Assembly: GCA_964577695.1 (NCBI GenBank) | Contig: CAZOAL010000003.1 | Location: 163,486 to 227,485 of the forward strand | Source of the DNA: an uncultured bacterium | Lineage (GTDB): Bacteria > Poribacteria > WGA-4E > PCPOR2b | DNA: 64,000 nt | Reading direction: 5' to 3' | Shown: piece by piece, positions 806 to 62,720 of the stretch | Layout: the number at the start of each line of letters is the position of its first letter | Numbering within the stretch: position 1 is the first letter of the stretch | Translations under genes and position numbers: made by a program | Notes under the pieces: model-generated | What the model saw: only the letters and a program-made list of their open reading frames with translations | What the model was told of the DNA's origin: nothing | Database searches by the model: none

Positions 806-1000
806 GGAAGGAGAACGTGAAACGTGAAGCGTGAAACGTGAAAGGAAAGAATGGAAGGAAGGGAAGGAAAGGAAGGATGGAAGAAAGGAAGAATGGAAGG
901 ATGGAAGGTTGTTGTTGGAAGGATGGAAGGATGGAAGGATGGAAGGGAAGAAGTTTTTCACGTTTCACGTTTCACGTTTCACGCATCATTTTCTCTAATC
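806..1000. repeat. heptamer-repeat hairpin element: (CGTGAAA)n arm, GGAAGG/ATGGAAGG tract, (GTTTCAC)n arm
   Basis: read directly: cgtgaaacgtgaagcgtgaaacgtgaaagg 813-842; ggaaggatggaagg units 842-955; gtttcacgtttcacgtttcacg 958-985 (inverted to left arm). Confidence 0.85.
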
Positions 1001-9455: not shown

Positions 9456-9493
9456 TTAGTGCATCGCGGCATAAGTTTTGACCCCCCCTCGGT

Positions 9494-9580
9494 CCCCCCG
9501 TGGACGGGGGGAAGGAAACGCCCCTCCCCGCCCTTCTCCCTCCCTGTCCACGGGGAGGGCCGGGGTGGGGGGAGGCCGGG
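9494..9580. repeat. GC-rich palindromic (REP-like) hairpins just after the stop codon
   Basis: ccccccgtggacgggggg 9494-9511; ccctccctgtccacggggaggg about 9540-9562. Confidence 0.6.
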
Positions 9581-9689
9581 TGGGGGTAAACATCTGTCGA
9601 GTTATTTCTGCCTTGAAGCACTGGTCAACCACAGTGATGATGAATGTTGTGAGGGGGTTGCACCCCCGAACTCAAACTGTCGGGGGTAC

Positions 9690-9905
9690 AACCCCCTTAG
9701 AACCATACATCAAAATCCGAAATCCCAGATCCTTCCGAAGGTTTCAAACCTACGACTTTTTCAGTTATGGGCAAAAGTGAGGCCCAGACTTCCGAAGTTT
9801 CCACAGATGAGTTGAGCGGAGACGATGCAAAACCATGAAAAACCGATTCATCAAAAATCTGGTCTCAAACTTCGGAAGTCTAAGTGAAAAACTCGTATCA
9901 AACCT
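9690..9905. repeat. MITE-like palindromic element, family A (TIR ...cgactttttcagttatgggcaaaagtga...; internal gacttccgaagttt / aaacttcggaagtct)
   Basis: near-identical copies at 21835-21995 and 53105-53300; a partial hairpin at 19060-19100. Confidence 0.8.
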
Positions 9906-19138: not shown

Positions 19139-20392
19139 ATGAAGGTCAATCCACAACAATTTCTTGATGATGGCTATCTCATTTTACGAGAGGTTATTTC
19201 TCCACAACGGTTAGACGAACTGCGCGCCAGTTTTGAAGTCCTTGTTGAACGGCAGAAAGCAATTTGGGTACGTGAGCGCAAGCCCAACGACCCGCCGGGC
19301 GGCGCATGGGAAACTTCAGCCCAGCCACGGTTGGGGGCTTTCAATACTCTTATTGATGAGACAACTGCCAACACAGTTGAATGTTGGTTACACGAAAATA
19401 CGTTGGGTGTCAGTCGCCAACTGTTGAGCGTGCCGGATGCGGCGTCGGTCGCGGGGATGATGTTGATGTGCAGCCCCACGCGCGATCACGGCCCCGCCAA
19501 TTGGCACCGCGATGTCCATCCCATTGACATGGCACCACTCGGTGGCTTGCAGATGGACCTGCTGGAGAAAGGGCCCAAGTATGTACAGTGGAACATCCCA
19601 CTCTATGACGATGATGTGCTGTGGGTGGTGCCCGGCAGCCATCGCCGCCTCAATACCGACGTAGAAAACCGACAACTGCTTGAAAATCCGCGCACCCCCT
19701 TGCCGGGGAGCATCCCGGTTCACCTCAAAGCTGGCGATGGTGTGGTGTATATCAACTACCTCCTGCACTGGGGCAGCAACTACAGCACCAAACTGCGACG
19801 CACCCTTCACGGCGGTCACTCAATTTTCCCTTACTTCCCTGACCTGAGCTTCACGAGGTTCCTTTCGCCTTCGGCGCGGGAGACCTTTGCGTGCTGGGCT
19901 CAGAAAAGCGCAAAGATGCAAGACCTTACAGAGGCAGCGCTCCGCGCTGTTATCAACAAAGATGTCAACACTTACCATGCAGCGGTCGAATCGCTCCAGC
20001 CCGGCGCGGGCGAGAAGGGCAAACTGGCACTGGCAATCTATCTCTCCAAGGCGGCCTATCACATCCACATCTTGAAACGCCCCGACTTTGACAGCCCCGC
20101 AAGTCGAAGACTCTCGGAACGGAGCGGGATTCAAAGCAACTTGCCCGCGGATGTTCGCAGACGCGCGACCAACTCGCACTCAATCACGCTCAACTGGGGG
20201 CCAGCGTTCGCCGTTCGCTTCTCGCAGGCAGAGGCTGACATTTTATGGCAGCGTTTCAAGACGCTTGACGCGAAACTTCAGGCGGAGACGGAGCAGTTTG
20301 TTCCCGGCTTCCAGTCCGGGCCGATGCGATACTTCTTCGAGGAGATGCCAGACGATTTCGATGTCGAAGACTTTATCGCCAGTTGGGATTAA
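19139..20392 (+). CDS. phytanoyl-CoA dioxygenase (PhyH) family protein with C-terminal extension
   Basis: N-terminus MKVNPQQFLDDGYLILREVI...; HRDVHP ... H motif spacing; RBS aaggag. Confidence 0.7.
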   Translation: MKVNPQQFLDDGYLILREVISPQRLDELRASFEVLVERQKAIWVRERKPNDPPGGAWETSAQPRLGAFNTLIDETTANTVECWLHENTLGVSRQLLSVPDAASVAGMMLMCSPTRDHGPANWHRDVHPIDMAPLGGLQMDLLEKGPKYVQWNIPLYDDDVLWVVPGSHRRLNTDVENRQLLENPRTPLPGSIPVHLKAGDGVVYINYLLHWGSNYSTKLRRTLHGGHSIFPYFPDLSFTRFLSPSARETFACWAQKSAKMQDLTEAALRAVINKDVNTYHAAVESLQPGAGEKGKLALAIYLSKAAYHIHILKRPDFDSPASRRLSERSGIQSNLPADVRRRATNSHSITLNWGPAFAVRFSQAEADILWQRFKTLDAKLQAETEQFVPGFQSGPMRYFFEEMPDDFDVEDFIASWD

Positions 20393-20395
20393 GTG

Positions 20396-20500
20396 AGGGC
20401 TAGTCATCATTCCCAGGGGAGGCAGTCGTAGCCTAAGATTCTATCTTGGCCCCTTGCGCAAGGGGCCAAGATAGAATCTTGGGCTACAATTCAACCGCCG
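20396..20500. repeat. gene-end motif gtgagggctagtcatcattcccaggggaggcagtcgtagcc plus family-B core palindrome (gtagcctaagattctatcttggcc..ggccaagatagaatcttgggctac)
   Basis: same motif follows the stops at 42976 and, in diverged form, 11043. Confidence 0.8.
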
Positions 20501-20682
20501 GATAATTATGACCAAGCCTCGATTAAGTGTGGGGCTGGTCCATTTCTGGAAAAATGAGTTGACACGCAGCATCAGCCGGAAGGAAAGGAAGGAAGAAAGG
20601 GGGGAAACCCTTCCCTTCCTTCCTTTCCGTTCACTCTGCTCTTCTTACCCAATTGTCAACATCTTTCTGAAACACCTGTCCA

Positions 20683-21810: not shown

Positions 21811-21834
21811 GGTGAACTCCTTTCAAAACTGTGA

Positions 21835-21995
21835 ATGACACGACTGTTTCAGTTATGGGCAAAAGTGATGCGCAGACTTCCGAAGTTTCAACATCTGAGT
21901 TGAGCTGAGACGATGTGAAACCATAAAAAACAGATTCAGCAAAAATCGGGTCTCAAACTTCGGAAGTCTCAGTGAAAAACTCGTATGAATAAGGA
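21835..21995. repeat. MITE-like element family A, copy 2
   Basis: aligns base-for-base with 9740-9900. Confidence 0.8.
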
Positions 21996-27842: not shown

Positions 27843-27844
27843 AT

Positions 27845-27880
27845 CAGGCGTGAAACGTGAAACGTGAAACGTGAAATGTG
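27845..27880. repeat. (GTGAAAC)x3-4 heptamer repeat
   Basis: gtgaaacgtgaaacgtgaaacgtgaaatgtgagg. Confidence 0.85.
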
Positions 27881-27912
27881 AGGATTTGAACCCATGAACT
27901 GATGAACACCCT

Positions 27913-30805: not shown

Positions 30806-30900
30806 CATGAAACGTATTGCGTATTGCGTATTGCGTACTGCGTATTGCGTGAGTCGTGATACCTGAACCTAACACCTAACACCTAACACCTGACACCTAA
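30806..30900. repeat. (GCGTATT)x5 followed by (CACCTAA)x5 heptamer tracts
   Basis: cgtattgcgtattgcgtattgcgtactgcgtattgcg ... cctaacacctaacacctaacacctgacacctaac. Confidence 0.9.
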
Positions 30901-30916
30901 CGAACGAGGAATAAAA

Positions 30917-32242: not shown

Positions 32243-33169
32243 ATGGCTAGGAAAAAAATCAGCGTCATCGGCGCTGGAAACGTTGGCGCGACTGCCGCAT
32301 TTCTTATCGCTCAAAAGCAAGTTGGCGATGTCGTGATGGTGGATATTATCGATGGGATTCCACAGGGGAAGAGTTTGGACATGGCACAAGCATCCCCTAT
32401 TGAGCTCTTTGACGCAAGCGTTACAGGCTCGCTGGATTATGAAGCGACTGCTGGCTCTGACCTCGTCATCATTACGTCTGGCTCTCCCCGCAAGCCGGGC
32501 ATGACCCGCGAAGACCTCTTGCAGACCAATGCGAAAATCGTTGGCATCGTCACGGAAAGCGTGGTGAAGCACTCGCCGAATTGTATCATCGTGATGTTGA
32601 CAAACCCGCTGGACATCATGACCTATCATGCGTGGAAGGTGTCGGGTTTCCCACCCAATCGCGTCCTTGGACAAGCTGGCGTCCTGGATTCAGCGCGGTT
32701 CCGTTATTTTATCGCTCTGGAACTTGGCGTCTCTGTCGAAGACGTTCAGGCACTTGTGATGGGGGGACACGGGGATACGATGGTGCCCCTGCCGCGTTAT
32801 ACAACGGTTGCCGGGGTTCCAATCACACAACTCATGTCCCCTGAGCGAATCACAGCGCTTGCCGAGCGGACACGCGACGGCGGCGCTGAAATCGTCAACC
32901 TGCTGAAAACCAGCGGTTACTACGCCGCCGGTGCCGCGCTCGCTCAAATGGCAGAAGCTATCATCCGAGACAAGAAGCGGATTATCCCTTGCTCGGCTTA
33001 CCTCACCGGACAGTACGGCATCAATGACCTGTACAGCGGCGTCCCGATTAAATTGGGGGCGGGCGGCGTTGAGCAGGTTATCGAAATCGAACTGACAGAC
33101 GATGAACTTCAGGCGTTGCAAACGTCGGCTCAGACGTATCGGGAAGGGATTCAACTGCTGGGGTATTGA
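32243..33169 (+). CDS. mdh: malate dehydrogenase (LDH-like MDH family)
   Basis: KISVIGAGNVGATAAFL Rossmann N-terminus; 308 aa; family conservation throughout. Confidence 0.85.
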   Translation: MARKKISVIGAGNVGATAAFLIAQKQVGDVVMVDIIDGIPQGKSLDMAQASPIELFDASVTGSLDYEATAGSDLVIITSGSPRKPGMTREDLLQTNAKIVGIVTESVVKHSPNCIIVMLTNPLDIMTYHAWKVSGFPPNRVLGQAGVLDSARFRYFIALELGVSVEDVQALVMGGHGDTMVPLPRYTTVAGVPITQLMSPERITALAERTRDGGAEIVNLLKTSGYYAAGAALAQMAEAIIRDKKRIIPCSAYLTGQYGINDLYSGVPIKLGAGGVEQVIEIELTDDELQALQTSAQTYREGIQLLGY

Positions 33170-38102: not shown

Positions 38103-38429
<327 letters not shown>

Positions 38430-40306: not shown

Positions 40307-40699
40307 ATGGAAATACAAGTGATGTCCGTTATGCCGGAGAGGATGGTAAAACTGCTGACCGGCTTGACGGTTAGCGATTGGATTGCTGTTGTGGGGTTAA
40401 TCTTCACCATGGGGGGTGCATTGTATGCCTGGTGGCGGTGGTGGTGGTGCAGTGCCAAAGGTGAACTGAAGCGAATCTACCGGCGCGCTGCCAGGAAAGC
40501 AACGCAGAAAAATAGCAAGCTTGTGCCAATCGTATGTGCCATAGTTGATGAAGCCGATTTTTGGAAAGGGGCATGGTCCCCGCGTGTTTCTGAAACGGAT
40601 GAACGCGAGAGTTTTCGTGAACAATTGAAACGACGGTGCCCTGCTTTGGATGTGACTAAATTAGGGCGTGTTGACGAACTCGGGCAAATGCGCTCGTAG
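40307..40699 (+). CDS. hypothetical membrane protein; C-terminal codons are supplied by repeat element B
   Basis: one TM segment and WRWWWC; the ORF runs into the MITE-like element at 40655. Confidence 0.3.
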   Translation: MEIQVMSVMPERMVKLLTGLTVSDWIAVVGLIFTMGGALYAWWRWWWCSAKGELKRIYRRAARKATQKNSKLVPIVCAIVDEADFWKGAWSPRVSETDERESFREQLKRRCPALDVTKLGRVDELGQMRS

Positions 40700-40795
40700 C
40701 CCAAGTTTCTAACTTGGTGCCTCGTCCCCAACCAAGATAGAATCTTGGGCTACAGTTGGATTGCGAAACAGTTCGTCAACACGCCCTCAACCAGC
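40655..40795. repeat. MITE-like palindromic element family B, full copy (TIR gggcgtgttgacgaact; core gtagcccaag[at]ttctaacttgg / ccaagatagaatcttgggctac)
   Basis: full copies at 46075-46215 and 60655-60795; core-only copies at 20430-20500 and 43010-43075. Confidence 0.85.
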
Positions 40796-42976
40796 ATCAT
40801 TGACTCCGACATAAAGGGCATCCTCTACCTGCGCTGTCTGCGCGGCGACCTCAGTCTGGGGCGGATGTTCGTCGAGGCGGGGCGCATCGTCGGAGGTAGC
40901 GAGGCGTTCCAGCAGACCTACGCCAACCGCGATCTGACCCTTGAGCGGAAACTGGAGTTCTTCTTCCGTGAACTGAGCCGAGCGGGGGACGTCTGGGTGG
41001 TGATGGACAACTTTGAAGACCTGCTTGCCCCCGACGACACCATCGCTGACCCGGAGCTGCGCCAGTTCATCGAAACCGCTGTGGACACCTCGCACACCGT
41101 GCGCCTCATTGCCACCACCCGCGCCATCCCGCGCTTTCGCGGCAGTCAGCAGGTTAAGCCGATAGACCTGCGCGAGGGCTTGCCGGAAGACCAGGCAATT
41201 GCGTATCTGCGAACGGATGGAGCGGACTACGGCCTGGCGGATGCCGACGAGGGGTTGCTGCGCGCCTTCGTCAACCGCGTCCACCGCATCCCGAAGGCGC
41301 TGGAGTCGGTCATCGGCTACCTCTCGGAGAAATATCCTGTGGTGCAGTTGTCCGACCTGATGGCGAACGACGCCCTGTTTGCGGACTTTGACCGCCACGA
41401 CGCGGAGAACGGCTTGAAGCGGCTCATCGCCGAACAGTTTGCCGACCAGACGCCGGACGCGCAGTTGGTGCTGTGCGCCCTGTCTATCTTCCCCAAGCCC
41501 GCCCCGCTCACCGCGCTGCGCTATCTGCTCCCCGCCCTCGACTGGGCGAGCGTCCTGCCCCGTCTCGAACGCAACAGACTGGTTGGCAGACAGGTTGACC
41601 GCTATGACCTGCACCCGATTGTGCGGGAGTATGCTTATGCGCAGATACCTGAATACATGCAGGATTCAAGGTTCAGGTCAGAGCGGAGCGGAGACTCCCC
41701 GATGGGATCGGGACAGGCCGATCTATCGGAGATTCAGGATTCAGGTGAGACAGTGTCTGCACCTTCCACCAACGGCGTGCCATTCACTCGCTCTGCGTTG
41801 CACACGCGGGCGGCGGATTTCTTCCGTGAACTCCGCAAGCCGCAACAGGAGTGGAAGACCATCGCTGACCTTGAGCCGCAGTTGGACGAGTTCCACCATC
41901 GCGTCCGAGCGGGGCAGTATGACGCCGCGGCGCGAGTGCTCAATGACATTGACTTCGACTACCTGCAACTCTGGGGGCACGCCCGAACGGTCATTGAGTT
42001 GCGCCAGCAGTTGGAGGGGAAGTTGACGGACACCGATCTGGCACGCGTCAACGTGGGCCATTTGGGGTTTGTTTATCAGGACACGGGGCGGGTGCGCGAA
42101 GCCATCCCCTGCCTGGAACGTGCCTTACAAAGCGCTCGGGATGAAGACAATCAGGGTGGGATCGGCGTATGGCTGGGCAATCTGGGGAATGCCTACGCCG
42201 ATCTGGGGGAGACGCGCCAGGCTATCGAGTATTACGAGCAGGTGCTGGAGATTGCCAGAGCGATTGGCGACCGACGGGGGGAAGGGAATTGCTTGGGCAA
42301 TCTGGGGATTGCCTACGCCGATTTAGGTGAGAGGCACCAGGCGATTAGGTATTACAAGCAGGCGCTGGCGATTAAACGCGAGATTGGTGACCGAGTAGGG
42401 GAAGGCAAACAGTTGGACAACCTCGGAGCAGCGTACTTGAGGTCAGGCGAGTTCGATTCGGCAATCGGACACTACACGCAAGCAGCGCGTGTGTCGGAAG
42501 AGGTGGGTGACAAAGAAAACCAGTCTTATGCCCTGGGTGGCCTGGGCGCTGTCCACCATCACCGTGTCAACCTCGCCGACGCCCGCCGCTGTTACGCAGA
42601 CGCCCTCGCCCTTGATATGCCGAGGACCGACTACAGTTGCGCCGTCAAGTTAGGTGTCCTCTGCCTGGAAGAGGGCAAGGCAGAGGATGCGCAGGACTAC
42701 TTCGCCCGCGGCATCGCCCTCTGCCGCGCCCTGCTGGAAAAGACGCCGCGTCTTTACGACGCGCTCTACGAACTTGCCCTCGCGCAACTGGGGGGCGGGC
42801 AGCCTGACGGTGCCCTCGTCACCTATCGGCAGGCGTTGGAGGTCTGCGCGGCGAAGGGTGTGGTGCAGAATGCGCTTCAGGACCTGCGGCTGCTGGGACG
42901 GGCGGTGTTGCCGGTGGCAGGGTTGGCGGAGGCGGTGGCGTTGTTGGAGAAGGCTACGGAAGGGGGGGTTAAGTGA
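40745..42976 (+). pseudogene. STAND-type (NB-ARC-like) NTPase-TPR protein lacking its N-terminal P-loop; probably 5'-truncated
   Basis: Walker-B-like VWVVMDNFEDLL and IATTRA present but no GxxxxGK[ST]; ORF starts inside repeat B; C-terminal TPR units (NLGNAYADLGETRQAIEYYEQVLEIAR... x5). Confidence 0.55.
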
Positions 42977-42977
42977 G

Positions 42978-43078
42978 GGGTGGTCATCATTCCAAGGGGA
43001 GGCAATCGTAGCCCAAGATTCTATCTTGGCCTTCCGGCACAAGAGCCAAGTTAGAAACTTGGGCTACAGAAGGGTTTT
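42978..43078. repeat. gene-end motif (gtgaggggtggtcatcattccaaggggaggcaatcgtagcc) plus family-B core palindrome
   Basis: compare 20396-20500. Confidence 0.8.
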
Positions 43079-45954: not shown

Positions 45955-46075
45955 TGAATAAATTTCTTTGACTTTTCACCCTCACCCCCGGCCCCTCCCC
46001 ATCAAGGGAGAGGGGAGCAACACAGTTCCCTCCCCTCGTGGGAGAGGGTTAGGGTGAGGGGGATTCAGAACAAAA
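45955..46075. repeat. GC-rich REP-like palindromes (tcaccctcacccccggcccctccccatcaagggagaggggagc ... ccctcccctcgtgggagagggttagggtgaggggg)
   Basis: read directly; related to the intragenic elements at 52733-52800 and 55350-55420. Confidence 0.7.
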
Positions 46076-46215
46076 AAGTTGAAAGAACTAGGGCGTGTTG
46101 ACGAACTATTTTTCGATCCCGTCGTAGCCCAAGATTCTATCTTGGTTTAGTGCTTGGGGCCAAGTTAGAAACTTAGGCTACAAGCGCATTTCCCCGAGTT
46201 CGTCAACAGAGCCTA
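46075..46215. repeat. MITE-like element family B, full copy; exact reverse complement of the 60655-60795 copy
   Basis: direct comparison. Confidence 0.85.
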
Positions 46216-46238
46216 ATTATAACGAAGGAGAAAGTTAA

Positions 46239-50892: not shown

Positions 50893-50992
50893 TGTGTGAA
50901 ACGTGAAACGTGAAGAGGAACATGCAAACACCTAACACCTAACACCTAATACCTAACACCTTCCACGCATCACGTTTCACGACTTAAAAGGA
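50893..50992. repeat. heptamer hairpin element: (GTGAAAC)x3 ... (CACCTAA)x4 ... CGTTTCACG
   Basis: read directly. Confidence 0.85.
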
Positions 50993-51879: not shown

Positions 51880-51925
51880 GGAACTTGGAAGGAAGGAAGG
51901 AAGGAAGGGAAGGATGGAAGGCAGG
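51880..51925. repeat. (GGAAGGA)n tract
   Basis: ggaaggaaggaaggaaggaagggaaggatggaagg. Confidence 0.8.
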
Positions 51926-52065
51926 TTTCAAATTTCCTGAAAAATTACTTTACACTGAATCACAAAGATTGTAAAGAGGCTCATAAATATGCCGAAATTT
52001 CTAAACTTCCCGTAATTGGAACAACACGCTGACGGAGGCGTTTTCTGTCTCTGCAAACGTTTATC

Positions 52066-53103
52066 ATGAACGATACAATCACCGCCATCAAGGGAATCAA
52101 AGTTGGACATGCGACGAATCCAGTGGCACGCACCGGGTGTACGGTTATCCTCTGCGAGTCCGGGGCTGTCGCCGGAGTCGATGTCCGCGGCTCTGCGCCC
52201 GGCACACGAGAGACAGATGCCATCCGACCAGGAGGACTGGTTCAGTGTGCACATGCAGTTTTGCTCACGGGTGGAAGCGCGTTCGGATTGGACGCCGCCG
52301 GAGGGGTCATGCAGTACCTCGAAGAGCGAGGTATCGGATTTCCTGCTGGGCCAGTCCGTGTGCCGATTGTTCCGGCGGCGGTCATTTTCGATCTGGGAGT
52401 CGGCGATGCAAGGGTGCGCCCAGACTCGGAAATGGGCTATCGTGCCTGTGTAAGTGCGACAAACCAGCCGGTCAAGATGGGGCAGATTGGGGCTGGAGCT
52501 GGCGCAACCCTCGGAAAGGCGCTGGGGTGCATTCCATCAAACGGCGGCGTTGGATCGGCGTGTCGAAGGTTGAAGTCAGGGCTGATCGTCGGGGCGATTG
52601 TCGTCGTCAACGCGCTTGGGAACGTCGTCGATCCAATGACCGGAGCAATCGTGGCGGGTGCCCGGGATAAAGGGACGGGTGAGTTTGTGGATATTGTGGC
52701 GCGTTCATCCGATGCCACGCTGCCTTTCCCTCCCCCTCACCCCTTACCTCTCTCCCCAGCCCGCTTCGCTTCGAGAGGGGCAGGGAGTGAGGGGAGGGGA
52801 GGGGTCAGGAACGAGAGTGGAACGTTGGGAACGAACACAACCATCGGTATCGTCGCGACCAATGCCGAGCTCTCCCCTACAGCGGTGACGAAGGTGGCAC
52901 AGATGGCGCATGACGGCCTGGCGAGAGCGATTCGCCCAGCTCACACGATGTTCGATGGAGACACGATTTTCGCGCTCTCTCTGGGAACGGAAACGGCTTC
53001 GAGTCCCGATTCTATCGGGATCGCGGAAGTGAATACCATCGGAATCGTTGCGGCGGAGGTCATGGCGGAAGCAATCTTGCAGGCTGTGAAACGTGACGCG
53101 TAA
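52066..53103 (+). CDS. P1/S58 (DmpA-type) family aminopeptidase, carrying an in-frame insertion of a GC-rich palindromic element
   Basis: N-terminal GIKVGHATNPVARTGCTVIL pattern; low-complexity insert LPFPPPHPLPLSPARFASRGAGSEGRGG encoded by the 52733-52800 repeat. Confidence 0.7.
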   Translation: MNDTITAIKGIKVGHATNPVARTGCTVILCESGAVAGVDVRGSAPGTRETDAIRPGGLVQCAHAVLLTGGSAFGLDAAGGVMQYLEERGIGFPAGPVRVPIVPAAVIFDLGVGDARVRPDSEMGYRACVSATNQPVKMGQIGAGAGATLGKALGCIPSNGGVGSACRRLKSGLIVGAIVVVNALGNVVDPMTGAIVAGARDKGTGEFVDIVARSSDATLPFPPPHPLPLSPARFASRGAGSEGRGGVRNESGTLGTNTTIGIVATNAELSPTAVTKVAQMAHDGLARAIRPAHTMFDGDTIFALSLGTETASSPDSIGIAEVNTIGIVAAEVMAEAILQAVKRDA

Positions 53104-53104
53104 T

Positions 53105-53300
53105 ACCAATTCGCGTTTCAAAAAGTTTCCTACTTCGTTATACGAGTTTTTCGCTTAGACTTCCGAAGTTTGACACCCAACCTGCGCGGGACGGTTCCTT
53201 CAAGGTTTCGCATTGTACCGGCTCACCTCGTCTGTTAAAACTTCGGAAGTCTGGGTCTCACTTTTGCTGATAACCGAAAAAGTCGTATCGTTACACTCAG
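53105..53300. repeat. MITE-like element family A, copy 3
   Basis: gttatacgagtttttcgcttagacttccgaagttt ... aaacttcggaagtct ... rc matches the 9700-9900 copy. Confidence 0.8.
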
Positions 53301-53439
53301 TGCAAGCTCTGAACCCTTCGACAAGTTCAGGGCAGGCCGTAGTGAAAGGACACGTTCTGACAGATCGCGCGACAGCGCTACAGATTGTGCTCGTAACGCG
53401 AATGGTTCATTTCGTAAATATCTCCCTTACGGTTTCTCG

Positions 53440-53520
53440 GAATTGGTGAGTGGTGAATGGTGAATGGTGAGTGGCATCGGTCACAACTCACCGCTCACCC
53501 ACTCACCATTCATTGAGCTG
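53440..53520. repeat. inverted repeat of GTGAGTG/GTGAATG heptamers (ggtgagtggtgaatggtgaatggtgagtgg ... ctcaccgctcacccactcaccattca)
   Basis: read directly. Confidence 0.8.
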
Positions 53521-54573
53521 TTACTTCTTCTGCTCCGGAAACGGCGCGCGAATATCGTAACGTCCCGCCTTCAGCACGGGGAGGGTGCCATCTGCCACCA
53601 TCAAATCCAGCGGGGATTCTCTGGTTTTGAGCGGCATCGTGACCACATTTTTGATGCGCAACGACTCGTAGATTGCCATCATGATCTCCATGGTATATCG
53701 CGCCTGCCGCCCGCTACTTCGGTGCTCAGGAATCTTCCCCTCCATCCAATCAATCAATTCTTGAAATTGATCCCTTTCCTCCGGGCGGGGCTTGATCTCC
53801 TGCCAGCCGCTCACTTTGTCATTTTGAAGCAGCACGAGGCCCCCTTCTCCGGTTTTGATTTGGCCCTCCGTCCCGTAGATGCGCGGCATCGGGACTTTCG
53901 GTTCGGGCAGGTCGCCTTCATAGATTCCGCGCGCGCCGCCTTCAAAGCAGACCAGTCCCATGCACAAATCCTCACAGGGGCTGCGACGTTCCCACCGGTC
54001 GGTGGTGCGAGACGTTTGCCCAATTACCCACAGCGTTTCGGGGTCCGATAAAATGTACCGCCAGCCATCGATGGCGTGTGTGCCTGTGTTGAGCAATCCA
54101 GCGTTGGGCTTGGCTCGGTGATGGACCAACGTCGGTTGTCCGATTGCGCCGTCAGCGACCAGCCTGTGAATCTCCGTGCTTGTGGCACTGAACCGCCCAT
54201 TATGTCCGATGACCAGCTTGGCACCATTCTTTTCGCACACATCGATCATGTCATCCGCTTGACCCAAAGACGCCGCCATCGGCTTTTCGCCGAGGATGCC
54301 TTTGACCCCCGCGTTTGCAGCAGCGACAGTGATCTCCGCGCGGACGCCTTGCCATGTTGTGATGCTAACAATGTCGAGCTCCTCTTTTGCTAACATCTGA
54401 TTATAGTCGGTGTACACGGCAGGAATGGAAAATTCTCCGGCGAGTCTTTTCGCTGATTCCTCACCGATATCCATTGCCGCGACCAGTTCCGTTGCCGGAT
54501 TTCGGGCATAAGCCCTCGAATGGGAGTGTCCCATCCCGCCACAGCCAATAATGCCAACTCGATATGTAGCCAT
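53521..54573 (-). CDS. Gfo/Idh/MocA family oxidoreductase
   Basis: MATYRVGIIGCGGMGHSHSRAY Rossmann N-terminus; start trimmed to that Met. Confidence 0.8.
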   Translation of the reverse strand: MATYRVGIIGCGGMGHSHSRAYARNPATELVAAMDIGEESAKRLAGEFSIPAVYTDYNQMLAKEELDIVSITTWQGVRAEITVAAANAGVKGILGEKPMAASLGQADDMIDVCEKNGAKLVIGHNGRFSATSTEIHRLVADGAIGQPTLVHHRAKPNAGLLNTGTHAIDGWRYILSDPETLWVIGQTSRTTDRWERRSPCEDLCMGLVCFEGGARGIYEGDLPEPKVPMPRIYGTEGQIKTGEGGLVLLQNDKVSGWQEIKPRPEERDQFQELIDWMEGKIPEHRSSGRQARYTMEIMMAIYESLRIKNVVTMPLKTRESPLDLMVADGTLPVLKAGRYDIRAPFPEQKK

Positions 54574-54639
54574 CAGTTTGCCTCCTCTTTTTAGCGATTT
54601 TTTTCGCAGATATACCATTTTTACCTGGTTCTAAAGCAT

Positions 54640-54790
54640 TAAATTCGTAGTCGTTCCAAACAGCGACTGAAGTCGCCACTACGGGGAATGCTTTATTTTT
54701 AGAGCAAAATGTGACAATCTGTAGTTTAGCCCCCCCGATCCCTCGGGGGGGCTAAACTACGATAGGTCGCATCTGCTAAAAGTTTAATTT
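54640..54790. repeat. palindromic repeat family C, copy 2 (gcgactgaagtcgccactacg; gggggctaaactacgat palindrome)
   Basis: reverse complement of 11110-11135. Confidence 0.65.
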
Positions 54791-54980
54791 ATAACCGTGT
54801 ACAGTGTAACTCGTGAAGAAGAAAAGACGTTGGAACAAATGTACCACTATGTGAAAAAACCCAGACTCAGACAACGGGCTCTCATGGTCTTGCTTTCTAC
54901 AAAAGGATATTGTCAAAAAGAGATTGCCCCCATTGTCCGGGTCAGAAAGCCCCTTCCGTCTCCGTGCGGCAGGGGCTTTT

Positions 54981-56003
54981 TTATGTCCCTGACGGGATTT
55001 GAAACGTCTCCACACAGGCTTTGATATAAGATTTGATGGCTTTGCCATAATCCGCATCCCGGATGGCGAAGTCGATGAAGGCGCGATAATAGTCCTCATG
55101 GTTGCCAAGGTCATACCGCGTTTCAGATGCCGCCAGTTGCACCGCGCGAACCGGATATCCCTGGTGGATGAGATGTTGAATCGCAGGGGTGACAGGAATT
55201 TCTCCATCCGGCGTCAGAGGAACTTTCCGGATGGCTTCAAAGATTTCGGGACCGAAGATGTAACGCGCATTTACAGCCAGCGAGCTGGGAGCGTCTGCGG
55301 CGGAAGGCTTCTCAACGATGTCGGAAATTTCCACATCACTGCCCTCTCCATCCTTGCCCCCCCCCCTCACCCCCTGCCCCTCTCCCCAGCCCGCTTCGCT
55401 TCGAGAGGGGTGAGGGGGTGCCGGTCCCGATCTTGGATCGGGACTCCCGGAACGGGGCTTGACAACACCGTAGCGGTGAATCTGTTCGCGGGCAACCTTT
55501 CTCACGCCGACCGTACATACGGACTGACGGGTGATATGGGAGTTGACCATACGAATTATATAATTGGGGTCGAGTTCTGAATAGATAATCGTATCACCGT
55601 AGGCGACGATAAACGGTTCAGCCCCCACGAACGTTTCGGCGGCAGCGATCGCGGCACCCGTACCTTGCGGTTTCAGGATGCCGGGCGGTCCCTGTTGACG
55701 GGTGTAAAAAAAGGAAATCCCTCTCGCTTGATAATCGAACGTTCCAAGCCGATCTAATTGTCCGACTTGAGTCAAGTAGGCGATGAGCTCCGTCTGATTA
55801 TCAAACTGGTTCTCGATAATCGTCTTGCTGCGAGAGGTGATGAAGAGAATATCGCGAACGCCAGCAGAGATCATCTCTTCCACAACGTACTGAATGGTGG
55901 GATAACGACCCACCGGAAGCATCTCCTTCGGGAGTGCGCGTGTGGTTGGTAAGAGTCTCGTCCCGAAACCGGAGACAGGGATGACAGCCTTACGTATCGT
56001 CAT
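54981..56003 (-). CDS. galU: UTP--glucose-1-phosphate uridylyltransferase-like sugar nucleotidyltransferase, with an in-frame palindromic-element insertion
   Basis: KAVIPVSGFGTRLLPTTRALPKEMLPV N-terminus; about 45 residues longer than typical GalU, with insert ...PAPPHPSRSEAGWGEGQGVRGGG... encoded by 55350-55420. Confidence 0.65.
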   Translation of the reverse strand: MTIRKAVIPVSGFGTRLLPTTRALPKEMLPVGRYPTIQYVVEEMISAGVRDILFITSRSKTIIENQFDNQTELIAYLTQVGQLDRLGTFDYQARGISFFYTRQQGPPGILKPQGTGAAIAAAETFVGAEPFIVAYGDTIIYSELDPNYIIRMVNSHITRQSVCTVGVRKVAREQIHRYGVVKPRSGSPDPRSGPAPPHPSRSEAGWGEGQGVRGGGKDGEGSDVEISDIVEKPSAADAPSSLAVNARYIFGPEIFEAIRKVPLTPDGEIPVTPAIQHLIHQGYPVRAVQLAASETRYDLGNHEDYYRAFIDFAIRDADYGKAIKSYIKACVETFQIPSGT

Positions 56004-56054
56004 GTATCCTCCTTGCGATGCAAAAACCCTAAATTCAAAAATGAACTACTACCT

Positions 56055-56423
56055 TCATTTGAGTCCGAGACTGCGTTTGAGACAAGTATCAACTTTTCCC
56101 ATGAGTGTATCTGACATCTTTCCAACTTTACGTGATACCAATGAGGCAGGCACTGTCATCACAAAGTCCAATCGCACAATAGAAGTGGCCCTTAGTCCAG
56201 TACCGCCGAAATCTGGATGACTCGCGTGGATTTCTAATTCATTCGCTGTCAGGTTTGTTAGATGTTGTGAGGTGATTGCAGCAAGCATCAGATCATCAGG
56301 GAACCTTCGCGACACTGTATGATCGGAGACAATCAATGCTGGTCGTAACTTTTGCTGCGTACCTGCGGCAGTTAGAAATGGGTAGTCAATCAGGACAACA
56401 TCACCCCGTTCGTAAATTGGCAT
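56055..56423 (-). CDS. MazF/PemK-family type II toxin endoribonuclease
   Basis: RGDVVLIDYPF...KLRPALIVS N-terminal pattern. Confidence 0.7.
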   Translation of the reverse strand: MPIYERGDVVLIDYPFLTAAGTQQKLRPALIVSDHTVSRRFPDDLMLAAITSQHLTNLTANELEIHASHPDFGGTGLRATSIVRLDFVMTVPASLVSRKVGKMSDTLMGKVDTCLKRSLGLK

Positions 56424-56664
56424 CGTAAATATCCTCCTCGGGGCTATCCCAGATCTTTGCGAGTGCCATTTGTTGCAATCTTAAATCGGATTCTGTCACA
56501 CTGGTTTGTTCTGTGAAAGTGTCGATGAGTTTGAGGACCAACACCCCTTCGTCAGCAGCAAGCAGTTTGAATTTCATGCCCTCTATAAGGTTGAGCTGGC
56601 GCAAAACTTCCTCTGGCAAGACCAGATGCCCACCAACCATTTGAGCGTATGGTGTTTCTGCCAT
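56401..56664 (-). CDS. AbrB/MazE-fold antitoxin
   Basis: MAETPYAQMVGGHLVLPEEVLRQL; 23-nt overlap with the toxin. Confidence 0.6.
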   Translation of the reverse strand: MAETPYAQMVGGHLVLPEEVLRQLNLIEGMKFKLLAADEGVLVLKLIDTFTEQTSVTESDLRLQQMALAKIWDSPEEDIYDANLRTG

Positions 56665-56799
56665 GTTCCAATCCTCCTTTTTAATTTGTTCTTGTGCTCT
56701 GCGTGGGCGCATTTCTAGCGCAAGTACCTGCGTGAATCCGCGTAAGCCAAATTTGGCGGTTACTTCATCTGTTAATGATGTACGCTTTCTCTGTCATTG

Positions 56800-58665
56800 T
56801 TACAGAAAATACCGCTCCTTACGCTTCGCAATTTCGTATTTCTTGTAAGCCTCTTGCGCGGTGCCGACCTCAGAAACTTGAGCGACAGGCACATCCCACC
56901 ACGATTCATAGCCGGGGACTCGTTGATCGAAATCGACATCGATCTTGATGACTGTCGTGCGATCCGAACCCTTCGCGTCTCCGAGCGCCGCTTTCAGGCT
57001 CGTTACCGTCGTTGCTTCGATGACATGGGCCCCAAGGCTCGCGGCATTGGCAGCCAAGTCAACAGGTAATATTTCCCCATCCAGTTGTCCTGTTGCGGAA
57101 CTACGGTAGCGAAAGTGTGTCGCAAAGCCTTGAGCGCCAGTTGACTCAGAAAGCCCGCTAATGCTGCTGTGACCGTTGTTATTGACCAATACGATGATGA
57201 GCTTGTACCCCTCCTGGACGGAGGTCATGATCTCTTGGCCCATCATCAGGTAGGAACCATCGCCGACCATCACATACACCTCACGGCTTGGGTCAGCCAT
57301 CTTGATGCCCAATCCGCCTGCGACTTCGTAGCCCATACACGAATAACCGTACTCAAGATGGAACTGCTTGGGATTGCGGGACCGCCAGAGCTTATGCAGG
57401 TCGCCGGGCATGCTGCCTGCCGCGCACACCATGACATCCTGCGGGTCCGAAAACTCATTCACTACGCCGATGACCTCGCTTTGACTCGGCAGAGGGCCGT
57501 GACCGAGATGGTAAAGCCGATTCACTTCAGCCTCCCACCCGTCACGAAATGTGTCAATCTGTGCGCTGTAGTCCGAATCGACATGATAGCCACTCACGGC
57601 TTCTCCCAACTCCTCAAGCGTGACGCGGGCATCCGCAACGAGTGGCAATGCGGCGTGCTTGGCGGCGTCAAACTCGGCGACGTTAATGTTGATGAAACGC
57701 ACATCCGGATTCTGGAACGCTGTTTTGGAAGCCGTTGTGAAGTCGCTCAACCGTGTTCCGATAGCGATGACGAGGTCGGCTTCACGGGCGATGATGTTGG
57801 CACCAAACGTGCCGGTGACACCCATCGCGCCTAAGCACCGGGGGTGGTCGTAACGAAGCGAGCCCTTGCCTGCAAACGTTTCGGCGACCGGAATGCCGGT
57901 CTGTTCGGCGAAACGCGCTAGGTGATCGGTCGCTTCGCTGTAGATGACGCCGCCCCCCGCGATAATCAGTGGTTTCTTGCTCCCGCGTATCCATTCCGCC
58001 GCGCGTGTGAGCAGATTCACATCCGCCCGTGGACGCGGAATCGTATAGACGCGCTTCTCGAACAGCGCGGCCGGGTAATCGAACGCTTCAGCTTGCACAT
58101 CCTGCGGCAATGCCAACGTGACGGTGCCGGTTTCGGCCTGCGAGGTCAGCACTCGCATTGCCTCCGGTAGTGAGGTGATGATCTGTTCAGGTCGGTTGAT
58201 GCGGTCCCAGTAGCGTGAAACTGGCTTGAAGCAATCGTTCACCGAGATGTCCTGTGAGCCCGGCGATTCCAGTTGTTGCAGGACCGGCGCGACGAGGCGA
58301 GTTGAGAAAATATCCCCCGGCAGTAAGAGCACCGGTATCCGGTTAATCGTCGCCCCGGCAGCGCCGGTGATCATGTTCGTTGCCCCCGGCCCAATCGATG
58401 TCGTGCATGCGAATGTGCGCAGGCGGTTGTTCATCTTGGCAAACGCGGCGGCGGTATGCACCATCGCTTGCTCATTGCGCGTTTGATAGAAGCGAAACGA
58501 GTCAGAATATTGATGCAATGCCTGACCGATTCCAGCGACATTGCCGTGTCCAAAGATGCCAAACATGCCGGCGAAGAACTGATGTTCAACCCCATCGCGT
58601 GCTACATACTGGTTCTTGAGAAATTCGACAACGGCTTGACCCATTGTCAATCTTCGAGTTTTCAT
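56800..58665 (-). CDS. iolD: 3D-(3,5/4)-trihydroxycyclohexane-1,2-dione acylhydrolase (ThDP-dependent)
   Basis: collinear with Bacillus IolD from the N-terminus (LTMGQAVVEFLKNQYV...IFGHGNV.GIGQAL...NEQ.M.H.A). Confidence 0.75.
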   Translation of the reverse strand: MKTRRLTMGQAVVEFLKNQYVARDGVEHQFFAGMFGIFGHGNVAGIGQALHQYSDSFRFYQTRNEQAMVHTAAAFAKMNNRLRTFACTTSIGPGATNMITGAAGATINRIPVLLLPGDIFSTRLVAPVLQQLESPGSQDISVNDCFKPVSRYWDRINRPEQIITSLPEAMRVLTSQAETGTVTLALPQDVQAEAFDYPAALFEKRVYTIPRPRADVNLLTRAAEWIRGSKKPLIIAGGGVIYSEATDHLARFAEQTGIPVAETFAGKGSLRYDHPRCLGAMGVTGTFGANIIAREADLVIAIGTRLSDFTTASKTAFQNPDVRFININVAEFDAAKHAALPLVADARVTLEELGEAVSGYHVDSDYSAQIDTFRDGWEAEVNRLYHLGHGPLPSQSEVIGVVNEFSDPQDVMVCAAGSMPGDLHKLWRSRNPKQFHLEYGYSCMGYEVAGGLGIKMADPSREVYVMVGDGSYLMMGQEIMTSVQEGYKLIIVLVNNNGHSSISGLSESTGAQGFATHFRYRSSATGQLDGEILPVDLAANAASLGAHVIEATTVTSLKAALGDAKGSDRTTVIKIDVDFDQRVPGYESWWDVPVAQVSEVGTAQEAYKKYEIAKRKERYFL

Positions 58666-60654: not shown

Positions 60655-60795
60655 GTCTAACACGGTATTAGGGCGTGTTGACGAACTCGGGGAAATGCGC
60701 TTGTAGCCTAAGTTTCTAACTTGGCCCCAAGCACTAAACCAAGATAGAATCTTGGGCTACGACGGGATCGAAAAATAGTTCGTCAACACGCCCTA
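60655..60795. repeat. MITE-like element family B, full copy (inverse of the 46075-46215 copy)
   Basis: direct comparison. Confidence 0.85.
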
Positions 60796-60844
60796 GTCTC
60801 CCTGTCTCCTTGTCCCCTATCTTTCCCTCCTTCCATTCCATCCC

Positions 60845-62096: not shown

Positions 62097-62621
62097 TTAG
62101 GTGATGTCGGGGCCAATCGCCTCGCGCACCGCCGCCACCACGTCAACGATATCCTCATCCTTCTCCTGCAAGCGGTTATGCGAATAGGGCCCCTTGATAC
62201 ACACCTCCGCCTTAATCGCGCTGAACCCAAATCCCACCGCATCCTTTGCCTTCGCTACGAGGCTTTCCCTGTACTCCGCCAACGTGTTGCCCGCCGGGAG
62301 AAGGCTGGCATACGGGGTCAGCTCGGGCTGTTTAGCGCCTCCCAATAGCTTCCAGATCGGTTTCCCCTCGGCTTTTCCGCGAATATCCCACAGTGCCATA
62401 TCAAGCGCACCCATGGCACAGATACCAAGCCCTCGCCGTCCGTTCATCGCAGAGCCGATGTACAGTTTTTCCCACAACGCCTCCACCTGTAGTGGGTCTT
62501 GACCGATGAGCATCTCCTTAAGCCCCAAGCCCATGCAGTGCGTTCCGGGTGCCTCGATCAACGCCTTTACCGCCCAGGGATTGGTGTCTGTTTCACCGAT
62601 ACCGACGAGCCCTTCGGTCAA
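62097..62621 (-). pseudogene. internal fragment of an enolase-superfamily (MR/MLE) dehydratase gene
   Basis: aligns to residues ~40-210 of the 20683..21810 protein (GIGET...ALWDIRGK...LLGG); it lacks the N-terminal about 40 aa and the whole C-terminal barrel; 5' side abuts the heptamer tract. Confidence 0.6.
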
Positions 62622-62720
62622 TTGTCAATTGTCAATTGTCAATTGTCAATTGTCGATTGTCAATTGTCGATTGTCGATCCCCTCCTTCCCTTCCTTCCCT
62701 TCCTTCCCTTTCTTCCTCTT
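62610..62720. repeat. (CAATTGT)x4(CGATTGT) tract followed by (CCTTCCCTT)n
   Basis: read directly. Confidence 0.9.

What the first reader, a model, noticed from the sequence alone, without database searches (positions are those of the whole stretch)
52733..55420. GC-rich palindromic element inserted in frame inside two unrelated enzymes
A roughly 65-bp element (core ctctccccagcccgcttcgcttcgagagggg with flanking gagggg/cccctc arms) occurs in the same + orientation at 52733-52800 and 55350-55420. The first is inside the S58 peptidase gene on the + strand. The second is inside the GalU-like gene on the - strand. In both, the reading frame is preserved. The inserts add low-complexity loops (LPFPPPHPLPLSPARFASRGAGSEGRGG in the peptidase; PAPPHPSRSEAGWGEGQGVRGGG in GalU). 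A related element lies intergenically at 45955-46075. This mirrors the Rickettsia palindromic elements that insert in frame into ORFs, and it is rare outside that lineage.
Basis: seen in the sequence. Interest (0 to 1): 0.65.

Follow-up and report, generated by a model that had tools for sequence, protein, structure and literature searches.

The report
BoxC-type palindromic repeats inside enzyme genes
Two copies of a small G/C-rich palindromic DNA repeat of the widespread BoxC "triplex-motif" kind sit in frame in tolerant surface loops of two housekeeping enzyme genes of a Poribacteria genome, and the same codon positions carry different palindromes in sister strains.

Summary
An identical 31-nt core lies at 52750-52780 and 55380-55410, with none expected by chance. 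One copy is in frame in an S58 peptidase gene (+) and the other in a GalU gene (-). The same DNA gives different peptides in the two genes, so the shared unit is DNA.

Both are lineage-specific insertions. Of 119 GalU relatives, 115 have a 17-20 aa segment where the window has 49 aa. The peptidase segment is 16-32 aa in 119 of the 121 aligned sequences and 51 aa in the window.

The element is not an RPE. It is a derivative of the BoxC/PIT/"TMECO" G/C-rich intrastrand-triplex-motif repeats (Holder 2015). The intergenic copy at 45979-46060 is a textbook BoxC pair and matches 5406 of 5426 E. coli genomes.

Sister strains with about 95% identical flanks carry other triplex-type palindromes at the same GalU codon. 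One of these belongs to a second widespread family.

A 95.6% identical relative has the orthologous GalU element with a short AAGCTT loop. The window's longer loop is shared by both window copies, which indicates recent copying between them.

The host genes remain under purifying selection (dN/dS 0.15-0.34). I also found in-frame copies of this motif in Mfd, VgrG, DsbD, PriA and HemN-like genes elsewhere. This is a new variant of a known kind, of moderate interest.

The parts
52728..52804 (+). BoxC-like palindromic element, copy 1, in frame inside the S58 peptidase gene. Layout: CCCTCCCCCTCACCCC-TTA-CCTCTCTCCCC-[AGCCCGCTTCGCTTC]-GAGAGGGG-CAG-GGAGTGAGGGGAGGGGAGGGG.
52714..52806 (+). Extra coding segment of the peptidase, about aa 217-247. 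It ends 10 residues before the inferred self-cleavage site N257|T258.
   Evidence: Alignment breaks at query 215-247 against 9cxr. N257/T258 align to NylC Asn266/Thr267 (PMC6021441).
52066..53103 (+). Host gene 1: S58/P1-family (DmpA/NylC/ThnT-like) self-processing peptidase, 345 aa.
   Evidence: dN/dS 0.15 against L003
55357..55418 (+). BoxC-like palindromic element, copy 2, in frame inside GalU and read on the minus strand. Layout: C10-TCACCCCC-TG-CCCCTCTCCCC-[AGCCCGCTTCGCTTC]-GAGAGGGG-TGAGGGGG.
55424..55444 (.). Second, separate perfect hairpin inside the GalU insert: GTCCCGATC-ttg-GATCGGGAC. It is shared, in decayed form, with alleles L001 and L249 and is absent from L002/L125.
55359..55454 (-). 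Whole extra coding segment of GalU, about aa 184-215. It replaces the turn between strands 179-183 and 223-231.
   Evidence: the AF2 model has pLDDT below 50 only at 194-219
54981..56003 (-). Host gene 2: UTP--glucose-1-phosphate uridylyltransferase (GalU/YngB-like), 340 aa.
   Evidence: dN/dS 0.21-0.34 against insert-bearing alleles
45979..46060 (.). Intergenic canonical BoxC/TMECO palindromic pair: a type-B-like half (CCG loop) followed by a type-A half. The type-A half is CCCTCCCCT-CGT-GGGAGAGGG-TTA-GGGTGAGGG.
   Evidence: blastn to 5406 of 5426 E. coli genomes; alignment to the E. coli wzc-wcaA BoxC
9522..9575 (+). Further intergenic BoxC-like element with a long loop and a CCG second loop: CCCTCCCCG-N20-CGGGGAGGG-CCG-GGGTGGGGG. 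It lies in a G/C-rich block at 9480-9596.

Best explanation
The two segments are paralogous copies of a small, non-autonomous G/C-rich palindromic repeat. It belongs to the BoxC / PIT / 'TMECO' intrastrand-triplex-motif class, in a derived two-sided form with an expanded loop.

They sit in frame at positions where each protein tolerates extra length. In the S58 peptidase this is the length-variable linker just upstream of the self-cleavage site N257|T258. In GalU it is the turn of a beta-hairpin in the nucleotidyltransferase domain.

They are DNA-level passengers, not selected peptide modules. The same DNA is read on opposite strands and gives unrelated peptides.

Such repeats can adopt non-B structures (hairpin, triplex, G-quadruplex) and make their locus unstable. 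The site therefore turns over by partial deletion, loop slippage and replacement by other triplex-type palindromes. Purifying selection on the host enzymes lets only in-frame, stop-free outcomes survive.

Shown:
- The inserts exist and are lineage-specific.
- The element belongs to the BoxC class by architecture.
- Alleles turn over at the same codons.
- The host genes are under purifying selection.
- The derived loop is shared by the two window copies.

Inferred:
- The identical 31-nt core was spread between the two sites, 2.6 kb apart, by short-patch gene conversion or replication template switching between pre-existing BoxC-like elements. No transposase is invoked.
- The inserted loops are disordered and functionally neutral.
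For: Insertion status:
- Homologues at 82% identity or less lack the segments.
- The GalU segment is 17-20 aa in 115 of 119 sequences, 37 aa in the three closest, and 49 aa in the window.
- The peptidase segment is 16-32 aa in 119 of 121 sequences, 36 aa in P0001, and 51 aa in the window.
- PDB alignments break at the inserts.

Family:
- The published TMECO pattern is CCCTCNCCC N3-6 GGGNGAGGG N3 GGGNGAGGG, with type A/B palindromic pairs (PMC4666352).
- Window 46028-46060 fits type A with one mismatch. The pair matches E. coli at a median of 15 places per genome.
- The intragenic copies carry the same blocks.
- The relaxed architecture is found in at least 120 loci of many phyla.

Turnover:
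- GalU alleles with 94-97% identical flanks carry different inserts at one codon.
- The core of the L002-type insert belongs to a second widespread family, CCCCCC-TTTGAAAA-GGGGGG-NN-GGGGGGATTT, found in at least 120 metagenome contigs.
- The peptidase allele L003 carries yet another C/C/G-block hairpin.
- Synonymous divergence of the flanks is only 0.06-0.19.

Recent exchange:
- The orthologous GalU element in L249 (95.6% identical) has the loop AAGCTT. The window has AGCCCGCTTCGCTTC, and this derived loop is identical in the peptidase copy, while the arms differ.

Tolerance:
- The AF2 GalU model has pLDDT 84. Its only segment below 50 is 194-219, between two strands.
- N257/T258 align to the NylC autocleavage site (PMC6021441).
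- dN/dS is 0.15-0.34.

Generality:
- In-frame copies lie in Mfd (L006), VgrG (L070), the DsbD linker, PriA and a HemN-like gene.

Holder et al. report instability at TMECO sites and deletions that keep a hairpin.
Against: - The intragenic copies fail the strict TMECO pattern. Their first loop is 18-20 nt rather than 3-6. They also gave no blastn hit in E. coli.
- In E. coli the family is reported as 'always intergenic'.
- No mobilisation mechanism is known for BoxC. Gene conversion is inferred only from the pattern of an identical core with diverged arms.
- Only 64 kb of the genome was visible. Genome-wide copy number is unknown, and a master copy elsewhere cannot be excluded.
- A compensatory A/T swap in the stem between L002 and L125 could mean the structure itself is under selection.
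- Stable triplex formation in vivo was not supported, even in E. coli.
- No expression or activity data exist for either protein.
Confidence: 0.7

Rival explanations
1. RPE-like mobile element. A miniature transposable element with its own, trans-acting transposition machinery actively inserts into ORFs, as proposed for Rickettsia palindromic elements.
For: - Two near-identical copies sit in unrelated genes, both in frame.
- Different repeat families occupy the same codon in sister strains, which could reflect repeated insertion at a preferred target.
- The window is rich in other young repeats, for example 131-nt copies 98% identical.
Against: - No terminal inverted repeats beyond the palindrome itself, and no recognisable target-site duplication.
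- No transposase among the neighbouring genes scanned.
- Only the central roughly 49 nt are near-identical. The arms differ, which fits conversion of pre-existing elements better than insertion of a whole unit.
- The element is 62-77 nt and G/C-rich, whereas RPEs are about 105-146 nt.
- Holder et al. found no association of BoxC with mobile elements.
Confidence: 0.15
2. Selected function. The palindrome or its product is maintained because it does something. Candidates are an mRNA or DNA structure (hairpin, G-quadruplex, triplex) that tunes translation, transcription or mRNA decay, or a Pro/Gly-rich flexible loop useful to the enzymes.
For: - A hairpin is retained in every allele despite sequence replacement.
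- A compensatory A/T swap keeps the stem in L002 versus L125.
- Canonical G4 motifs are present in the G-rich arms.
Against: - The same DNA gives unrelated peptides in the two proteins.
- Nearly all orthologues do without the segment.
- The alleles differ completely in sequence.
- Compensatory changes in quasi-palindromes arise mechanistically by template switching (established knowledge).
- PIT/TMECO elements showed no promoter or terminator activity in E. coli.
Confidence: 0.1
3. Artefact. Assembly chimeras at repeats, or decaying pseudogenes.
For: The source is probably a metagenome-assembled genome, and repeats can mislead assemblers.
Against: - The same allele was assembled independently in JGI (L250, 99.94% over 5112 bp) and in ENA.
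- Four further datasets show inserts at the same sites.
- The ORFs are intact, catalytic motifs are conserved, and dN/dS is 0.15-0.34.
Confidence: 0.03

Closest known systems
[quoted passage not shown] 2015, PMC4666352)
   Same: - The same 9-nt blocks: CCCTCACCC, CCCTCTCCC, GGGAGAGGG and GGGTGAGGG.
- The same C-block / G-block / G-block logic and palindromic pairing.
- The window's intergenic copy has the type A (TTA) plus type B (CCG) arrangement and aligns to E. coli copies.
- The sites are hypervariable between close strains, with deletions that keep a hairpin.
   Different: - The two intragenic copies have one shared central hairpin with an 18-20 nt loop and a third-strand block on both sides. 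They therefore fail the strict pattern.
- They lie inside genes in frame, whereas E. coli copies are reported as always intergenic.
- The host is a Poribacterium, not a proteobacterium or cyanobacterium.
Rickettsia palindromic elements (RPE; Ogata et al. 2000)
   Same: A palindromic repeat inserted in frame into unrelated, functional protein genes at positions compatible with the fold. The host genes stay under purifying selection.
   Different: - No sequence relationship was seen or expected.
- RPEs are about 105-146 nt (PMC3184786) and come from an A/T-rich genus. Here the elements are 62-77 nt at 68-75% G+C.
- The class is spread over many phyla.
- Alleles turn over rapidly at a fixed site.
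Other small repeats found inside ORFs: Bordetella BRE (Hot 2011, PMC3110155), the pneumococcal repeats of Croucher 2011, and the enterobacterial repeats of Delihas 2007 (reviewed in PMC3184786)
   Same: Short structured repeats that are mostly intergenic, with a minority fused to or inside coding sequences.
   Different: These are different sequence families. Whether BRE is related to the BoxC-like element I found in a Bordetella-like Mfd (L006) could not be checked, because the BRE sequences are in a supplement I did not read.
REP/RAYT systems and MITEs
   Same: Short, abundant, hairpin-forming, non-coding repeats.
   Different: - No GTAG-type head and no RAYT (REP-associated tyrosine transposase) gene nearby.
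- No terminal inverted repeats with target-site duplications.

Membership tests
BoxC / PIT / TMECO triplex-motif repeats | Sequence pattern CCCTCNCCC N3-6 GGGNGAGGG N3 GGGNGAGGG, one mismatch allowed (PMC4666352) | tested here: inconclusive
   - Intergenic 46028-46060 fits, with one mismatch: CCCTCCCCT-CGT-GGGAGAGGG-TTA-GGGTGAGGG.
- The intragenic copies have the blocks but an 18-20 nt first loop and a shortened G stem, so the strict pattern is not met.
- The orthologous L249 allele has an 11-bp stem, a 6-nt loop, a 3-nt loop and a third block, which is close to canonical.
BoxC / PIT / TMECO triplex-motif repeats | Direct sequence similarity to E. coli BoxC copies | tested here: inconclusive
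   - The intergenic element matches 5406 of 5426 E. coli genomes, at a median of 15 places. The best full-length hits cover 89% at 77% identity, E=3e-7.
- The peptidase copy gave no blastn match.
BoxC / PIT / TMECO triplex-motif repeats | Multicopy, dispersed, either orientation, often as inverted type A plus type B pairs | tested here: met
   Four BoxC-like elements lie in 64 kb, at 9522-9575, 45979-46060, 52728-52804 and 55357-55418. The 45979 copy is an A+B pair.
BoxC / PIT / TMECO triplex-motif repeats | Intergenic location (reported as invariable in E. coli MG1655) | tested here: not met
   Two of the four window copies are inside ORFs. Six instances in five genes among 137 instances from other genomes have Pfam domains on both sides in the same frame. 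This feature describes E. coli rather than defining the family.
BoxC / PIT / TMECO triplex-motif repeats | Local hypervariability between close strains | tested here: met
   Different inserts sit at one GalU codon in alleles with 94-97% identical flanks. A different hairpin sits in the peptidase allele L003.
BoxC / PIT / TMECO triplex-motif repeats | Forms an intrastrand triplex in vitro | not testable with these tools
   Only hairpin folding could be computed. G4 motifs are also present.
Rickettsia palindromic elements (RPE) | Membership of an RPE sequence family, about 105-146 nt, in Rickettsia | tested here: not met
   The elements are 62-77 nt and G/C-rich, and the host is Candidatus Poribacteria. 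No RPE consensus was available for a direct alignment.
Rickettsia palindromic elements (RPE) | In-frame insertion into functional ORFs at structurally permissive sites | tested here: met
REP / RAYT | GT[AG]G head and an associated RAYT transposase | tested here: not met
   No such head is present in the element sequences. There is no Y1 transposase among the ten neighbouring ORFs scanned. The rest of the window was not scanned for one.
MITE | Terminal inverted repeats plus a target-site duplication | tested here: inconclusive
   The arms are inverted repeats. No duplication is visible when compared with empty sites L126 and L127, but those are 24% diverged.
Rfam RNA families | A match at the gathering score | tested here: not met
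   No family matched anywhere in the window.

The most novel reading that the evidence does not exclude
Triplex-type G/C palindromes form a pan-bacterial class of self-propagating DNA. The class includes BoxC-like elements and the CCCCCC-TTTGAAAA-GGGGGG-NN-GGGGGGATTT family.

On this reading they spread without a transposase. They overwrite or nest into existing hairpin or triplex-prone sites by template switching or short-patch conversion, and this happens inside genes as well. The process would then be a general, ongoing source of loop insertions in proteins of many phyla, of the kind known from RPEs. In this Poribacteria population it would be active on the timescale of strain divergence (dS below 0.1).
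Probability: 0.25. Interest if true: 0.7.

Novelty: new variant of a known kind. Interest (0 to 1): 0.45.

Why it matters
BoxC/PIT/TMECO repeats have been known since the 1990s, yet they have no accepted function or means of spread. They have been treated as strictly intergenic.

This window shows three things:
- They can live in frame inside housekeeping enzymes.
- The occupied codon becomes a hot spot where different triplex-type palindromes replace one another between strains that differ by about 5%.
- A private loop variant has been copied between two sites 2.6 kb apart.

This gives a natural system for asking how these repeats move and how much they contribute to length variation in protein loops. 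Metagenomic read data can address that directly. It also warns annotators that Pro/Gly-rich 'PSP...GEG' stretches in proteins from many phyla may be repeat DNA.

Tried and rejected
- **Exact 23-nt core scans.** Scans of genome contigs and metagenome contigs found nothing. This says little, because neither collection holds this population. L250 from JGI carries the element yet was not found.
- **Contig look-up.** Looking up P0121 to reach the rest of the 260-kb contig failed.
- **Rfam.** No match in the window.
- **Peptidase structure.** An AF2 model from a 13-sequence alignment was too poor to use (pLDDT 46.5). I mapped the site by alignment to NylC and ThnT instead.
- **E. coli blastn with the peptidase copy.** No match.
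- **BRE.** I considered that Bordetella BRE might be the same family, because L006 is a Bordetella-like Mfd. The main text gives no sequence, so this stays unresolved.
- **Spanning frames in other genomes.** Of 38 distinct stop-free spanning frames, from 42 motif instances, most had no Pfam domain or a domain on only one side. Those were counted as intergenic or 5' extensions.
- **In-situ point-mutation divergence of one ancestral insert.** Rejected. Flank dS is only 0.06-0.19 while the inserts are unalignable, and one belongs to a different widespread family.
- **Other readings.** An intein, a DGR (diversity-generating retroelement) or a programmed frameshift have no supporting feature here.


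Full report
**1.

The sequence is as described.
- The 31-mer CTCTCCCCAGCCCGCTTCGCTTCGAGAGGGG occurs exactly at 52750-52780 and 55380-55410, both on the + strand. No match appeared in 100 shuffles, even with 3 mismatches allowed.
- With arms, the elements span 52728-52804 and 55357-55418. Left arm plus core are about 92-93% identical. The GalU copy lacks 7 and 9 nt in its right arm.
- As single strands both fold into imperfect hairpins, z = -2.6 to -2.8.
- Copy 1 lies in ORF 52066-53103(+), Peptidase_S58, E=1.9e-48. Copy 2 lies in ORF 54981-56003(-), a GalU-type NTP_transferase.
- Both ORFs read through.
- The same DNA is read on opposite strands and gives unrelated peptides (...PLPLSPARFASRG... 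and ...PSRSEAGWGEGQG...). The shared entity is therefore DNA, not protein.

**2. These are insertions, not ancestral loops**

Alignments to solved homologues break exactly at the inserts.
- Peptidase residues 215-247 face 4 residues of nylon hydrolase 9cxr.
- GalU residues 187-218 face no residues of B. subtilis YngB 7o2n.

Named homologues are Candidatus Poribacteria.
- Across the 119 aligned GalU sequences, the segment from V180 to D228 is 17-20 aa in 115, 37 aa in the three closest relatives, and 49 aa in the window.
- Across 121 peptidases, the segment from V208 to T258 is 16-32 aa in 119, 36 aa in the closest relative, and 51 aa in the window.

It is not met.

The sites are permissive.
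- A deep-alignment AF2 model of GalU has pLDDT 84.4 and pTM 0.84. Its only segment below 50 is 194-219, placed between strands 179-183 and 223-231, so the insert replaces a hairpin turn.
- In the peptidase, N257/T258 align to NylC Asn266/Thr267, the autocatalytic cleavage site (PMC6021441). The insert therefore sits in the naturally length-variable tail of the alpha subunit, 10 residues before the scissile bond.

The host genes remain constrained. dN/dS is 0.15 for the peptidase and 0.21-0.34 for GalU among insert-bearing alleles.

The gene neighbourhood is core genome: IF3, PheS and DUF4159 upstream of the peptidase, and MazF and IolD beyond GalU. Part of it is syntenic in relatives.

An assembly artefact is excluded. 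JGI contig L250 is 99.94% identical over 5112 bp and carries the same element. An ENA protein carries the same insert.

**3. What the element is**

A relaxed architecture search used CCCTCACCCC N1-8 CCTCTC N8-38 GAGAGGGG. These span Chloroflexota, many Pseudomonadota, Cyanobacteria, Planctomycetota, Acidobacteriota, Verrucomicrobiota, Bipolaricaulota and others.
- The typical unit is CCCTCACCCC-NN-CCCTCTCCC-loop-GGGAGAGGGG.

A literature search on these strings led to Holder et al. 2015 (PMC4666352). The family is BoxC, also called PIT elements and 'TMECO'.
- It is a G/C-rich intrastrand triplex motif with the pattern CCCTCNCCC N3-6 GGGNGAGGG N3 GGGNGAGGG.
- E. coli MG1655 has 23 copies, 'always located intergenically'.
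- Type A (TTA loop) and type B (CCG loop) often form inverted pairs.
- It is not linked to known mobile elements and has no promoter or terminator activity.
- It is associated with local instability between strains, including deletions that keep a hairpin.

The window's intergenic element at 45979-46060 is exactly such a pair.
- Its right half, CCCTCCCCT-CGT-GGGAGAGGG-TTA-GGGTGAGGG, is type A with one mismatch. Its left half has the CCG loop.
- It matches 5406 of 5426 E. coli genomes, with a median of 15 places per genome. It aligns along its length to the wzc-wcaA BoxC.
- A fourth BoxC-like element lies at 9522-9575.

The two intragenic copies carry the same blocks in a two-sided arrangement around a single hairpin with an 18-20 nt loop.
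- They fail the strict pattern and gave no blastn hit in E. coli.
- I therefore class them as a derived variant of the family, not a canonical member.
- Rfam has nothing in the window.

**4. The sites are hot spots**

DNA of close relatives was recovered. In a codon alignment of six GalU alleles:
- The two alleles about 76% identical in nucleotides (L126, L127) have an empty site.
- The alleles with 94-97% identical flanks all have an insert at the same codon, but not the same insert.

| Allele | Insert at the GalU codon |
|---|---|
| Window, L250 | Hairpin GTCCCGATC/GATCGGGAC plus the BoxC-like element |
| L249 (95.6% identical) | The same two parts, but a near-canonical element: 11-bp stem, AAGCTT loop, CAG, GGGGTGAGGGG |
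| L001 | The first hairpin plus a short C-tract/G-tract remnant |
| L002, L125 | CCTAAA(A/T)CCCCC-CCA-CCCCCC-TTTGAAAA-GGGGGG-AA-GGGGGA(T/A)TTTAGG, with a compensatory swap between the two |

- The core of the L002/L125 insert, CCCCCCTTTGAAAAGGGGGG, occurs in at least 120 metagenome contigs. Its conserved context is ...GGGGGG-NN-GGGGGGATTT. This is a second widespread C/G/G-block family.
- The peptidase allele L003 has dS 0.06 to the window. It carries yet another C/C/G-block hairpin, C7-TG-C7-GC-GGGCAGGGGGG.

Flank dS is 0.06-0.19 while the inserts are unalignable. The site therefore changes by replacement and deletion, not by point mutation. This matches the behaviour Holder et al. describe at intergenic TMECO sites.

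**5. Recent exchange between the two window copies**

Aligned to L249, the window's GalU element differs mainly in its loop.
- The window has AGCCCGCTTCGCTTC, which contains a GCTTC duplication.
- L249 has AAGCTT.

This derived loop and the adjoining stems are identical in the peptidase copy. The outer arms of the two copies differ: TTA against CTG spacers, and a CAGGGAG segment present only in the peptidase copy.

An identical centre with diverged edges is what short-patch gene conversion or a replication template switch between two pre-existing BoxC-like elements would leave. It is less expected from insertion of a complete unit. This step is inference. A master copy elsewhere in the unseen genome is not excluded.

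**6. Generality**

I examined 137 instances of the relaxed motif in other genomes.
- 42 instances lie in a stop-free frame with at least 60 codons on each side.
- Pfam scans of all 38 distinct frames found six instances in five genes with domains on both sides in the same frame.

| Gene | Locus and source | Supporting detail |
|---|---|---|
| Mfd | L006, Bordetella-like MAG | 63 residues (345-407) where E. coli Mfd 2eyq has 15 |
| VgrG | L070, Stutzerimonas stutzeri | 65 residues (435-499) where VgrG1 4mtk has 32 |
| DsbD (interdomain linker) | L087, Cedecea | Pfam domains on both sides |
| PriA | L060, Gastranaerophilales | Next to an internal DUF559 domain |
| HemN-like | L081, Dehalococcoidia | Two elements |

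In-frame residence is therefore a low-frequency general property of this class, not a Poribacteria oddity. In-frame small repeats are also documented for other families (PMC3184786, PMC3110155).

**7. Verdict**

In-frame insertion of one DNA repeat, analogous to RPEs, is supported. The family assignment and the claim of rarity are not.
- The best explanation is a passenger BoxC-class repeat in permissive loops. Instability-driven turnover and recent copying between the two sites follow from it (confidence 0.7).
- Dedicated transposition (0.15), selected function (0.1) and artefact (0.03) are the rivals.
- Both the family and the phenomenon are known. New here are their combination, the allelic series at a fixed codon, and the evidence for exchange between copies. 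I rate this a new variant of a known kind, interest 0.45.

Noticed in passing
window 811-995, 7854-8195, 27843-27885, 30867-30912, 50895-50975, 51881-51927, 62617-62717: Intergenic arrays of 7- or 8-nt tandem repeats (CGTGAAA, GGAAGGAT, ACCTAAC, GTCAATT), often as inverted blocks flanking genes. They resemble cyanobacterial short tandemly repeated repetitive (STRR) sequences.
   Followed up: no
window 46087-46217, 60667-60797, 40659-40787, 20389-20526, 42930-43031: A repeat of about 131 nt with an inner palindrome CCAAGATAGAATCTTGG. Two inverted copies are 98% identical, which suggests recent mobility. One copy abuts the BoxC pair at 45979-46060.
   Followed up: no
window 21834-21993, 53133-53292, 9730-9901: A repeat family of about 160 nt, 75-85% identical. 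One copy lies immediately 3' of the peptidase gene.
   Followed up: no
window 32886-33169 and 38146-38429: A 284-nt direct repeat, 97% identical, 5.3 kb apart.
   Followed up: no
window 54721-54760: A perfect 18-bp hairpin, GTAGTTTAGCCCCCCCGA-tccc-TCGGGGGGGCTAAACTAC, between the Gfo/Idh/MocA oxidoreductase and GalU. It is another C-tract/G-tract palindrome.
   Followed up: no
window 55424-55444: A separate perfect 9-bp hairpin (GTCCCGATC/GATCGGGAC) inside the GalU insert. It is shared with alleles L001 and L249 but absent from L002/L125, so the GalU insert is composite.
   Followed up: partly
L129-L248 (metagenome contigs): The motif CCCCCC-TTTGAAAA-GGGGGG-NN-GGGGGGATTT, often preceded by AAATCCCCCC, recurs in at least 120 metagenome contigs. 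It looks like a second widespread triplex-type repeat family. I did not find a name for it.
   Followed up: partly
L060:1774-4404 (Gastranaerophilales MAG): PriA carries an internal DUF559 (Vsr-like endonuclease) domain between its 3'-DNA-binding and helicase domains, directly after a BoxC-like element.
   Followed up: no
L006:1065-4649 (Bordetella-like MAG); L070:2802-5273 (S. stutzeri); L087:2-1726 (Cedecea); L081:3316-4809 (Dehalococcoidia): In-frame BoxC-like elements lie in Mfd, VgrG, the DsbD interdomain linker and a HemN-like gene (two copies). The Mfd insert also brings A/T-rich flanking sequence.
   Followed up: partly
L250 versus the metagenome-contig collection: JGI contig Ga0136847_10486167 is 99.94% identical to window 53169-58280 and holds the core. 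The exact-core scan of metagenome contigs still found nothing. That collection is incomplete for this sample, so negative scans there need caution.
   Followed up: yes
window 56055-56712: A MazF/PemK toxin gene and a small upstream ORF lie next to GalU. The toxin is also adjacent to GalU in L002 and L249.
   Followed up: no
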